From Tubiluchus corallicola (lineage: Eukaryota > Animalia > Priapulida), in assembly GCA_030141605.1 (NCBI GenBank), contig JAQGDQ010000144.1, positions 186,001 to 250,000 of the forward strand: 64,000 nucleotides of DNA, read 5' to 3'. The translations under genes and the position numbers were made by a program. The notes beneath the pieces are model-generated. The model made no database searches. It saw nothing but the letters and a program-made list of their open reading frames with translations, and was not told the DNA's origin. Shown here piece after piece: positions 537 to 64,000 of this stretch. The first letter of the stretch is position 1. Every line of letters starts with the position of its first letter.

Positions 537-3500
537 GTGAGTATTTGCAATGTGGAAAATAAACAGTAATATAGCAGACATTGTGGTAAAAATTACATTA
601 GATAACATTACATTAGCTTTTATGCTTAGTATTTACATGAATTTTGCGGTTATGTTAGGTTATATGATTGAGAAGAAGGATACTGGAACAAGCAAATGGA
701 TGAAAGTGAATGCTGAACCAATAAAGGGTTTATCCTCTACAGTACCTAAGCTCCTGGAAGGCACTGAGTATGAATTCCGCATAATCGCTGTAAATACTGC
801 AGGACCCAGTAAACCTAGTAAACCTAGCCAGCCAGTAGTGGCTAGAACCCCCATTAGTAAGTCATTAAATAGTATTTTTATTTGGTTACATGATAAAAAA
901 AGGATGTTTTAGTTTTTAAATAGTTTGTTTGAACTGCTACGGCTCACGTTAGATCTAAAGACGGAATTTATTTGCATTTCGTGATTCAGCTTAGGTTTCT
1001 TCGTATAATTTGTCACACTTTTTATTGATTTTTTTGCTGTGTGCATGTAAACTTTATTATGAATGAATTATGTTTAAATTATACACTATCGAAGCCTGGG
1101 GTGAAATAACCATGGCTTTTAATTTTTGACAGGTGTGCCAGACAGTCCATCAAACTGCGAGGTCACTAATATTGCAAAATCATCTGTAACATTGGCTTGG
1201 GAGAAACCTCGACGTGACGGAGGAAGCAAAATTAGAGGTAAGCCTCAAACTGATACACACATCTTTTTTTCCAGTAAAATGAAAGCATTTAAAATAAAAA
1301 ATGGAAAGTTATGATAGTGGTACTCACTTTTGTGCATTCTTTTGTCTGTGACTGAAATAACACTTTTCTTCATTTAGCATATATTGTGCAAATGAAACGG
1401 CGAGGCGATGATACCTGGCAAACAGCGATTAAGCAAAAGGAAACTGCACTTACAGCTACTGTCAATGATTTAATACCTGGTGAAGAATACACGTTTCATG
1501 TGATGGCTGAGAATGAAGCTGGGTGCAGTGATCCATGCAAACCTACATACTTTGTGCAGATTAAAGAACAACCAGGTGAGTTCCACTAAAGTATAAAAAT
1601 ATTATTGCGCTGTTTAACCCGTTGGATAGCCTCATTTCCTGCTCATCGGTGATGTGGGTAAGCGTTGTATAGCGGCACCCTAAAAAATCGAAGAAAGAAA
1701 CACCAAAACCAAAGTTTAGAGGTGAAATCGGACGACTAAGAAGAACAAAAAAAGAACAAAATGATAAATGCTTTAAATTTGAAAAAAAAACAACAACGCT
1801 TGGCAGGCAGACAGGAGAAGTGCACACGAAGATTAAAACACTGACAACTGAGGATGTCATGTGCTAGTGTTTTTTTCTACAGGAAAAAACTGTTCAACCA
1901 ATCGTAAGTAATTGTGGATTTACTTCCTGATTTGAAATGACAATTATAATATTATCTGTAGGTTTGTTGGCCTGGTGCCTATGAATAAGTGTAATGCACA
2001 TTCACCTGTTCAGCTCAATATGTATATCACATTTAAACACAGCTGTGTAAAAAAATGTACGTGAGAATAATAAACAATAAGCATATCAGTTAATTCATAT
2101 TTTAAACAGTACTATAAACACAAACATCATTGTTTTACATTGTGAAATGTAAAATCTTCTCTACATTTTCAGTTTCACCACGAATTGACCGAACACGACT
2201 CACAGACATTAAGGTGAAAGCAAGCCAGCCGTTTGATTTACAGGTGGCTTATACTGGAGTTCCTCAACCTGATGTTGAGTGGACCGTTTCTGGAAAGGCA
2301 CTTGTTCCTTCTGAGAGAATTACTGTTGCTACGAAAGACGGCGTGACTCAAGTGGCATGTAAAAGGTCACAGAGGTCGGATACAGGACCTTATGTTTTAA
2401 CCTTGGTGAATGCTTCGGGGAAAGATTCTGCTACATGTGGTGTTATTGTGTTAGGTAATTGCATTTTACCATTAATAAGTAACCTGTCTAGAATCGCACA
2501 GTCATTTCAAAAACCAAAGATTCACCTCAAAGTTACTTTAATGTTTAGAATTGTTTTGATTGTATTTTACTGGCATCTGAGTGACAAATCTTGAGCCTTT
2601 GCTTTGATGGTTTGGGTGAGTAGGAATGTATCTGTACATGCCTATGTAAATCTAGATGAAAGTAGATAGAGAGAGAGAGAGACTTAGTGGATGTGCCATC
2701 TAAGACATATGTTTGTTACATGATTGCATGGGTGGTTAGGTTACAGTAATTTATTATTAACTAGCAGTTCTATAAATATTTTATTTCTAATGTTTGCCTG
2801 TAGGTTTAGGAGGGAAATTGGAACTTTTTGAATTTGGTGGAAATAATATTTCTGTACAATTTTAAGCTGTACAGTGAAGGCTGAAGGCAAGCCGTAGAGC
2901 CTATAGAAAACTGCCTTTCTTTTATGTTCCGAATAGCACTTCTACCATTGGTCATTTATGATTAAATTTAACAAAGAACTTTATCTTTGCGTGGGTGGAA
3001 ATGGGCATCCCCCTCTGATATCCGGGTAGGCGCTTGTTTCAAACAAGACAGACAACCTGCAAATAATAAATGCAGGCAGACAAAAACAAAAACAAATCAG
3101 AACTGTAAACTTGTTAAAACTCTATATTTGTTAAAACTTATAAAGATACAAAATAACACAAAACTCTTTGTAGAACATTTTAACACAAAAGCGGTTTTCT
3201 TTCCGACTGCTAAAGGTAGTTCCTTCCTCCACCTCCTTGCCAAATAGTTCCACAGAAAAAGAAGAATTTTGTTGTTCCTTAAGTTCTTCGCGAATATTTA
3301 ACTGATTTGCGACAGAGCCGAAATGACTGCATTTCAACGAAGACGCAGAAATATTACAAGTGTCAGACCACCAAAAGGAAATAAGGATTTACATGAAAAA
3401 CACGAAAAAGGGTAGATAGTGCACCAGTGAAATGAAGAGAATGACTGGTTGGGGCATGTGCTTTCTAATTATGAGAATCGGCTGTTTTAATGTTTGGCAA

Positions 3501-64000: not shown

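What the first reader, a model, noticed from the sequence alone, without database searches (positions are those of the whole stretch)
2173..64000. A 10-domain Ig-Fn3 super-repeat (3-2-2 pattern) in a twitchin-like giant protein: possible distinct thick-filament ruler
Seen: the domain order Ig-Fn-Fn-Fn-Ig-Fn-Fn-Ig-Fn-Fn repeats five full times plus a partial sixth. Summed exon lengths give 984, 984, 986, 985 and 987 aa, while the genomic span of a copy varies from about 9 to 12.5 kb. Known: twitchin/projectin cores repeat Ig-Fn-Fn. Vertebrate titin uses a 7-domain (2-3) and an 11-domain (2-3-3) super-repeat, the latter matching the roughly 43-nm myosin repeat. Inference: this higher-order period may have been built independently from twitchin-type domains. 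It would span about 39-43 nm at 3.9-4.3 nm per domain and could register on thick filaments as titin does. I cannot confirm from here that it is undescribed.
Basis: partly seen in the sequence, partly recalled or inferred. Interest (0 to 1): 0.85.

Follow-up and report, generated by a model that had tools for sequence, protein, structure and literature searches.

The report
Ten-domain super-repeat in giant twitchin

Summary
81 exons splice into one stop-free 5,668-aa frame: Fn-Fn, then (Ig-Fn3x3-Ig-Fn3x2-Ig-Fn3x2) five times plus a partial sixth, at 984, 984, 986, 985 and 987 aa. Domain identity peaks at offset 10 (52%, against 33-42% at offsets that are not multiples of 10), and RNA-like contigs splice the Fn-Fn joint that makes the triplet. 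The domains are ecdysozoan twitchin/projectin core domains, not chordate titin: the repeat is most simply a ten-domain twitchin block duplicated out of register and then amplified. None of 240 fetched relatives has two full periods. Gordionus and two mites each carry a single ten-domain duplication, the only clear out-of-register long duplications in 89 twitchins, a hint that ten is favoured. Three Ig-led groups per unit suggest three myosin crowns (43.5 nm, 4.35 nm per domain), but calibrations give 39 nm (titin) to about 48 nm (fly projectin), so the period is open. A filament-length ruler is untested; kinase and gene ends lie outside the window. Not found in ten open-literature searches, nor earlier in this scan. 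New variant of a known kind.

The parts
432..1575 (+). Two Fn3 domains (4 exons) before the repeat zone; they resemble the 2nd and 3rd Fn3 of twitchin's post-core triplet, not positions 9-10 of the repeat, so the zone starts at 2173
2173..11305 (+). Super-repeat copy 1 (13 exons, 984 aa): Ig-Fn-Fn-Fn-Ig-Fn-Fn-Ig-Fn-Fn
11417..23927 (+). Super-repeat copy 2 (16 exons, 984 aa)
   Evidence: three junctions seen in RNA-like contigs
24659..35605 (+). Super-repeat copy 3 (14 exons, 986 aa; 997 with the microexon)
27125..27917 (+). Diagnostic joint of position-3 Fn3 to position-4 Fn3 (intron 27255-27735), the inferred duplication breakpoint; spliced in an RNA-like contig with 76 letters on the shorter side
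   Evidence: table 5
30707..30739 (+). 33-nt in-frame microexon adding 11 residues inside the position-6 Fn3 of copy 3; likely alternative
   Evidence: RNA-like joint 30739 to 32543; sites; only strict candidate in 80 introns
35956..45674 (+). Super-repeat copy 4 (12 exons, 985 aa); exon 40952-41263 holds the position 3-to-4 joint without an intron
45776..57993 (+). Super-repeat copy 5 (14 exons, 987 aa)
58705..64000 (+). Partial copy 6 (Ig-Fn-Fn-Fn-Ig-Fn), running off the window end

Best explanation
This is the middle of an intron-rich twitchin/projectin-family muscle gene whose core is a ten-domain block repeated at least 5.5 times, most likely formed by an out-of-register tandem duplication in an ordinary twitchin core, and the protein likely lies stretched along myosin thick filaments with each ten-domain unit predicted to span three myosin crowns (43.5 nm). 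Shown: the repeat, its splicing, its twitchin-type domains. Inferred: the block runs from a core Fn3 nine domains back through the last Ig-Fn-Fn unit of the core, and joining that last Fn3 to the first one makes the triplet; later whole-block duplications amplified it. Inferred by analogy with titin: one Ig-led Fn3 group per crown, three groups per unit, so a longer, registered myosin-binding scaffold than ordinary twitchin.
For: Positions 2 and 3 match the last Ig-Fn-Fn unit of the twitchin core best in both 12 arthropod (48.4, 46.1%) and 10 nematode proteins (55.1, 45.1%); the colinear prediction is the top match for 5 of 10 positions in arthropods and 3 of 10 in nematodes. In a 419-domain Fn3 tree the printed sister groups of every position are twitchin domains. 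A complete Fn3 exon is up to 67% identical to twitchin-like hits and 36-45% to the seven named vertebrate titins. The five blocks form their own clade (100/100) and are only 50-55% alike, so the period is old and conserved at 984-987 aa; 58 of 70 listed exonic differences to the RNA-like run fall on third codon positions. Gordionus twitchin has one copy of the same block with the same joint, and Panonychus and Brevipalpus have a ten-domain duplication with another breakpoint: the only out-of-register blocks of 9 or more domains scoring above 10 among 89 twitchins. Titin has three Ig-led groups per three crowns in its C-zone and two per two in its D-zone (PMC7427331, section 10). Tarantula and Limulus filaments repeat at 43.5 nm with 14.5-nm crowns (PMC2112506, abstract). 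Projectin lies extended along the thick filament (PMC9886278, passages).
Against: Titin's measured rise (3.89-3.98 nm per domain; PMC7427331) and residue scaling (985 aa against about 1,081 aa per 43 nm) give 39-40 nm, not 43.5. Fly projectin's two published positions (110 and 350 nm, at most 50 domains apart) imply 4.8 nm or more, about 48 nm. Ordinary twitchins vary in core length by whole three-domain units (7 to 14 units), so strict register is not needed there. Colinear mapping of positions 4-10 is weak because core units are all alike, and position 10 is not one clade. Three ten-domain events is a small, post-hoc sample in an insect-heavy set. The thick-filament structure of this animal is unknown.
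Confidence: 0.5

Rival explanations
1. Lengthening without register: a chance ten-domain duplication was amplified by unequal crossing-over because a longer myosin-binding twitchin was useful or harmless; the period has no structural partner.
For: Once a block is duplicated, further copies keep its length automatically. Twitchin cores vary in unit number, and other invertebrates expand Fn3-only arrays with no Ig rhythm (Saccoglossus P0126, Ptychodera P0135, Batillaria P0411). Projectin covers only the ends of the fly flight-muscle filament and is not thought to rule its length (PMC9886278, passage).
Against: All three independent out-of-register events seen have length ten; unit length is held within 3 aa at about 50% divergence.
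Confidence: 0.33
2. The unit registers at about 38.7 nm: three units (30 domains at 3.87 nm) match a 116-nm, eight-crown thick-filament repeat, or one unit matches the actin half-pitch and troponin period, as a twitchin-type tether between filaments.
For: 10 x 3.89 nm = 38.9 nm. Lethocerus has a 116-nm thick-filament repeat and a 38.7-nm thin-filament half pitch (PMC6479483, passages). Molluscan twitchin binds actin as well as thick filaments (PMC12040844, passages).
Against: That geometry is documented for asynchronous insect flight muscle, where ordinary projectin has no ten-domain period; fly projectin's rise looks larger, not smaller.
Confidence: 0.12
3. It is a chordate-type titin whose 11-domain repeat lost one Fn3, or shares an ancestor's super-repeat with it.
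For: The A, B, C Fn3 types of titin (-AC-ABC; PMC10665226, passage) have look-alikes here, and chordate triplet domains score best against positions 2 and 3. Top PDB hits are titin C-zone chains.
Against: Identity and trees place the domains with ecdysozoan twitchin; amphioxus, Ciona and fish proteins fetched all show 2-3 or 2-3-3 units; the PDB holds little twitchin core.
Confidence: 0.03

Closest known systems
Twitchin (nematode UNC-22) / projectin (arthropod bent)
   Same: Same Ig I-set and Fn3 domain types and linkers, 98 aa per domain; positions 2-3 match the last core unit and positions 4-10 the core units.
   Different: Ordinary cores repeat Ig-Fn-Fn with identity peaks only at multiples of 3 (5 of 5 tested); here the period is 10, and this fragment alone holds 41 Fn3 domains against 39 in whole fly projectin. 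Kinase and ends not seen.
Chordate titin/connectin A-band (7-domain D-zone, 11-domain C-zone super-repeats)
   Same: Higher-order super-repeat with position-specific domain classes, three Ig-led Fn3 groups per unit as in the C-zone, built by whole-unit duplication.
   Different: 3-2-2 (10 domains, 985 aa) against 2-3-3 (11 domains, about 1,081 aa); domains derive from twitchin; no localisation or ruler evidence.
Gordionus sp. twitchin (CAK9301082.1, P0309)
   Same: One tandem duplication of a ten-domain block with the same joint, copies about 50% identical.
   Different: Two copies only, inside an otherwise ordinary twitchin; its blocks form their own clade (94.5/96).
Projectin of the mites Panonychus citri and Brevipalpus obovatus (P0378, P0386)
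   Same: One ten-domain tandem duplication producing an internal Fn3 triplet.
   Different: Different breakpoint, younger (48-100% identity between copies), two copies only.

Membership tests
Twitchin/projectin | Core of I-set Ig and titin-type Fn3 domains in Ig-Fn-Fn units | tested here: met
   two of three groups per unit are Ig-Fn-Fn
Twitchin/projectin | Domains group with twitchin core domains rather than chordate titin | tested here: met
   (printed sister lists were cut at 22 names)
Twitchin/projectin | Uninterrupted period-3 core followed by the IFFF-IFF-IFFF-IIFF-IIF block | tested here: not met
   Period is 10; the two upstream Fn3 look like post-core triplet domains, so the layout is not canonical
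Twitchin/projectin | C-terminal twitchin-type kinase and N-terminal Ig/PEVK region | not testable with these tools
   Outside the window; no genome is held
Twitchin/projectin | Muscle expression and thick-filament localisation | tested here: inconclusive
   Spliced contigs in one run guessed to be RNA; tissue and localisation unknown
Chordate titin A-band | 7-domain (2-3) and 11-domain (2-3-3) super-repeats | tested here: not met
   Offset 11 gives 34.4% and offset 7 gives 41.6%, against 51.9% at offset 10
Chordate titin A-band | Higher-order repeat with position-specific domain similarity | tested here: met
   works-like feature only
Chordate titin A-band | Repeat length equals the myosin repeat and sets filament length | not testable with these tools
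   Estimates span 39-48 nm

The most novel reading that the evidence does not exclude
An ecdysozoan lineage (probably priapulids) independently turned twitchin into a titin-like thick-filament ruler: a ten-domain, three-crown C-like zone, possibly preceded by seven-domain D-like units (hinted by the two upstream Fn3 domains), long enough to template the filament. The lone ten-domain duplications in Gordionus and mites would be the same first step taken twice more, making ten the natural register of twitchin on invertebrate filaments.
Probability: 0.2. Interest if true: 0.85.

Novelty: new variant of a known kind. Interest (0 to 1): 0.62.

Why it matters
Filament-matching super-repeats are treated as a chordate titin feature, and how invertebrates set thick-filament length is open (PMC9886278, passages). 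A second, independently built super-repeat with three Ig-led groups but ten domains tests the one-group-per-crown rule directly: it predicts a definite stripe spacing (43.5 or 38.7 nm) in a non-chordate muscle. The repeated fixation of ten-domain duplications in twitchin also gives a comparative handle on twitchin's register on myosin.

Tried and rejected
Flanks, copy number and kinase tree: not possible, no genome is held. Assembly artefact: rejected, copies are 48-55% identical in protein, introns differ in number and length, and DNA contigs of two studies cover the 20-kb stretch laid. Missed domain exons: a translated search of all introns found nothing above noise (best 23.5 bits). Search with the exon spanning the position 3-4 joint: 17 hits among 237 candidates, best 47%, no close relative (weak evidence). 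No priapulid protein was named in any search or look-up, so the taxon lead could not be confirmed. Crinoid Anneissia P0134 contains the string 3-2-2-3 but no offset-10 run: rejected as the same repeat. The Gordionus string match came from a split domain call; the real duplication was established. Halyomorpha P0396 (offsets 13 and 10), Papilio P0406 (two domains, 99-100% identical) and Toxocara P0429 (two end domains) were read as gene-model or assembly noise, not duplications. Whether the Gordionus and window duplications share one origin: unresolved, the tree is unrooted, and the AU test (flagged as too few replicates) rejected only one of two mixed groupings (p 0.018 and 0.082). No run on record as RNA holds the stretch by sampled words: no evidence either way. 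Four of 12 joints fit neither the model nor the microexon and were set aside as repeat or cross-copy matches. Structure prediction was not run: it returns no lengths.

Full report
Observation. The window is 34.6% G+C with no N and holds Ig and Fn3 exons on the + strand throughout. Junctions were chosen by script from homology and splice-site scores; all 80 winners are GT-AG. The 81 exons give 5,668 aa without a stop and 58 domains: FF, then IFFFIFFIFF five times, then IFFFIF. Pfam of 10 test exons I-set (4) or fn3 (6). Copies are 984, 984, 986, 985 and 987 aa and span 9.2-13.2 kb. Identity between same-type domains is 51.9% at offset 10 and 48-51% at 20, 30 and 40, against 33-42% at the other 36 offsets; the same-position mean of 50.3% exceeds all 2,000 shuffles (39.4 +/- 0.6, max 42.0); 51 of 55 domains have their nearest neighbour at the same position. 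Two introns inside positions 2 and 3 are conserved in 6 of 6 copies.

Expression. Run X6 (same species label, guessed to be RNA, contigs under 95% alike) was laid on 20000-59999. In one search, 6 of 12 listed joints match model junctions exactly, one within two bases, one reveals a microexon, and four are unexplained; two more junctions are bridged. One match, 27254 to 27736, is the position 3-to-4 joint that makes the triplet. Of 75 listed X6 differences, 70 are exonic and 58 of those are at third codon positions (the tool lists only the best supported). The gene is spliced as modelled and under purifying selection; the tissue is unknown.

What it is. A complete Fn3 exon is up to 67% identical to twitchin-like hits and 36-45% to the seven named vertebrate titins. 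Numbering twitchin domains from the last Fn3 of the Ig-Fn-Fn core (T0), position 2 matches T-1 and position 3 matches T0 best in 12 arthropod and 10 nematode proteins. A block running T-9 to T0 is the top match for 5 of 10 positions in arthropods and 3 of 10 in nematodes; the core units are too alike for more. In a FastTree of 419 Fn3 domains from the window and 12 proteins, positions 2, 3, 4 and 6 are each one clade, 7 and 9 take in one or two arthropod domains, 10 is scattered, and the printed sister groups are twitchin domains (lists cut at 22 names). I infer a tandem duplication of ten domains whose end (T0-type Fn3) joined its start (a core Fn3), giving the triplet, followed by whole-block amplification. 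Non-ecdysozoan twitchins fetched have only two or three Ig-Fn-Fn units or Fn3-only arrays, and the window's blocks fall outside the arthropod and nematode clades. That fits an ecdysozoan of another phylum; two unreviewed notes on this genome say priapulid, which I could not confirm.

Relatives. Of 240 fetched proteins with at least 14 domains and four Ig-Fn-Fn starts, none has two 3-2-2 periods and 59 have two chordate 11-domain units. Amphioxus, Ciona and fish proteins show 2-3 and 2-3-3 units, with identity peaks at offset 11 in the two tested; five ordinary twitchins peak only at multiples of 3. A scan of 89 twitchin-type proteins of 3,000 aa or more (redundant, mostly insects and nematodes) found out-of-register blocks of nine or more domains scoring above 10 in three, all at offset 10: Gordionus, with the same joint and about 50% identity between copies, and the mites Panonychus and Brevipalpus, with another breakpoint and 48-100% identity. 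On a 970-column tree of 18 blocks the window's five blocks (100/100) and the two Gordionus blocks (94.5/96) form separate clades: independent amplification or lineage-wise homogenisation; a shared first event is not excluded.

How it likely works. Twitchin sits on thick-filament surfaces (PMC12040844, passages) and projectin lies extended along the filament (PMC9886278, passages and section 11). For titin, one crown is assigned to each Ig-led Fn group, three per C-zone and two per D-zone repeat (PMC7427331, passages and section 10). This unit has three groups, so the analogy gives three crowns, 43.5 nm in tarantula and Limulus filaments (PMC2112506, abstract), at 4.35 nm per domain, inside the 4-4.5 nm quoted for these domains. 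But titin's in-situ rise of 3.89-3.98 nm gives 39-40 nm, as does residue scaling against the 1,079-1,084 aa C-zone chains, close to the 38.7-nm actin half pitch and a third of the 116-nm Lethocerus repeat (PMC6479483, passages). Fly projectin's rounded positions of 110 and 350 nm, at most 50 domains apart by my count (construct names from PMC9886281, passages), imply 4.8 nm or more. The period is therefore 39-48 nm. I put three-crown register at 0.5, no register at 0.33, 38.7 nm at 0.12. Setting filament length is a further, untested step.

Upstream hint. The two Fn3 domains before 2173 do not match positions 9-10. They resemble T+3 and T+4 of twitchin's post-core triplet (46.5 and 40.9% in arthropods; weaker and not top for the second in nematodes; tree support 0.82 and 0.95). 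The repeat zone thus begins at 2173 and the upstream layout is not canonical; a seven-domain unit there is a testable guess.

Literature. Ten searches of the open library gave no description: zero papers for five wordings of a ten-domain repeat, and nothing relevant in the listings for priapulids with titin. PMC12198301 (abstract, introduction, passages), PMC10665226 (passages) and PMC12241362 (passages) describe only the 7- and 11-domain A-band repeats in the passages seen. The amphioxus and Ciona connectin papers were seen only as citations; subscription journals and supplements were not searched, and could hold a description. This scan has no earlier look-alike.

Verdict. Real, spliced, conserved, and apparently undescribed: a twitchin-derived ten-domain super-repeat that parallels titin's C-zone. 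New variant of a known kind; interest 0.62; ruler case 0.2.

Noticed in passing
window 30707-30739 (+): 33-nt in-frame microexon in the largest intron (2,760 bp), spliced to 32543 in an RNA-like contig; adds 11 residues to a loop of one Fn3 of copy 3 only. Whether it can be skipped was not shown.
   Followed up: partly
window 432-1575 (+): Two Fn3 domains resembling twitchin's post-core triplet lie upstream of the repeat zone, which implies another duplication further 5'.
   Followed up: partly
P0309 (Gordionus twitchin), residues about 1750-3750: One ancient ten-domain tandem duplication with the same Fn3-Fn3 joint as the window.
   Followed up: yes
P0378 (Panonychus citri) and P0386 (Brevipalpus obovatus) projectin: Shared ten-domain tandem duplication in the core with a different breakpoint; both also lack one Fn3 near the end of the core.
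   Followed up: partly
P0370 (Drosophila projectin) with PMC9886278: Published positions imply 4.8 nm or more per domain, i.e. about 14.5 nm, one crown, per Ig-Fn-Fn unit; rests on rounded figures and my domain count.
   Followed up: partly
P0126, P0135, P0411: Saccoglossus, Ptychodera and Batillaria proteins carry long Fn3-only arrays in place of the Ig-Fn-Fn core.
   Followed up: no
window about 40000-40210, 44700-45120, 52100-52420, 52900-53620, 58100-58600: High-depth intronic repeats, some with inverted ends, probably small transposable elements; 6059-6417 and 60251-60668 share a 70-80% similar element.
   Followed up: no
window copies 1-5: The block tree is a ladder with the 3' copies most alike (53-55% against 50%), suggesting growth towards the 3' end; support is weak at two nodes.
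   Followed up: partly
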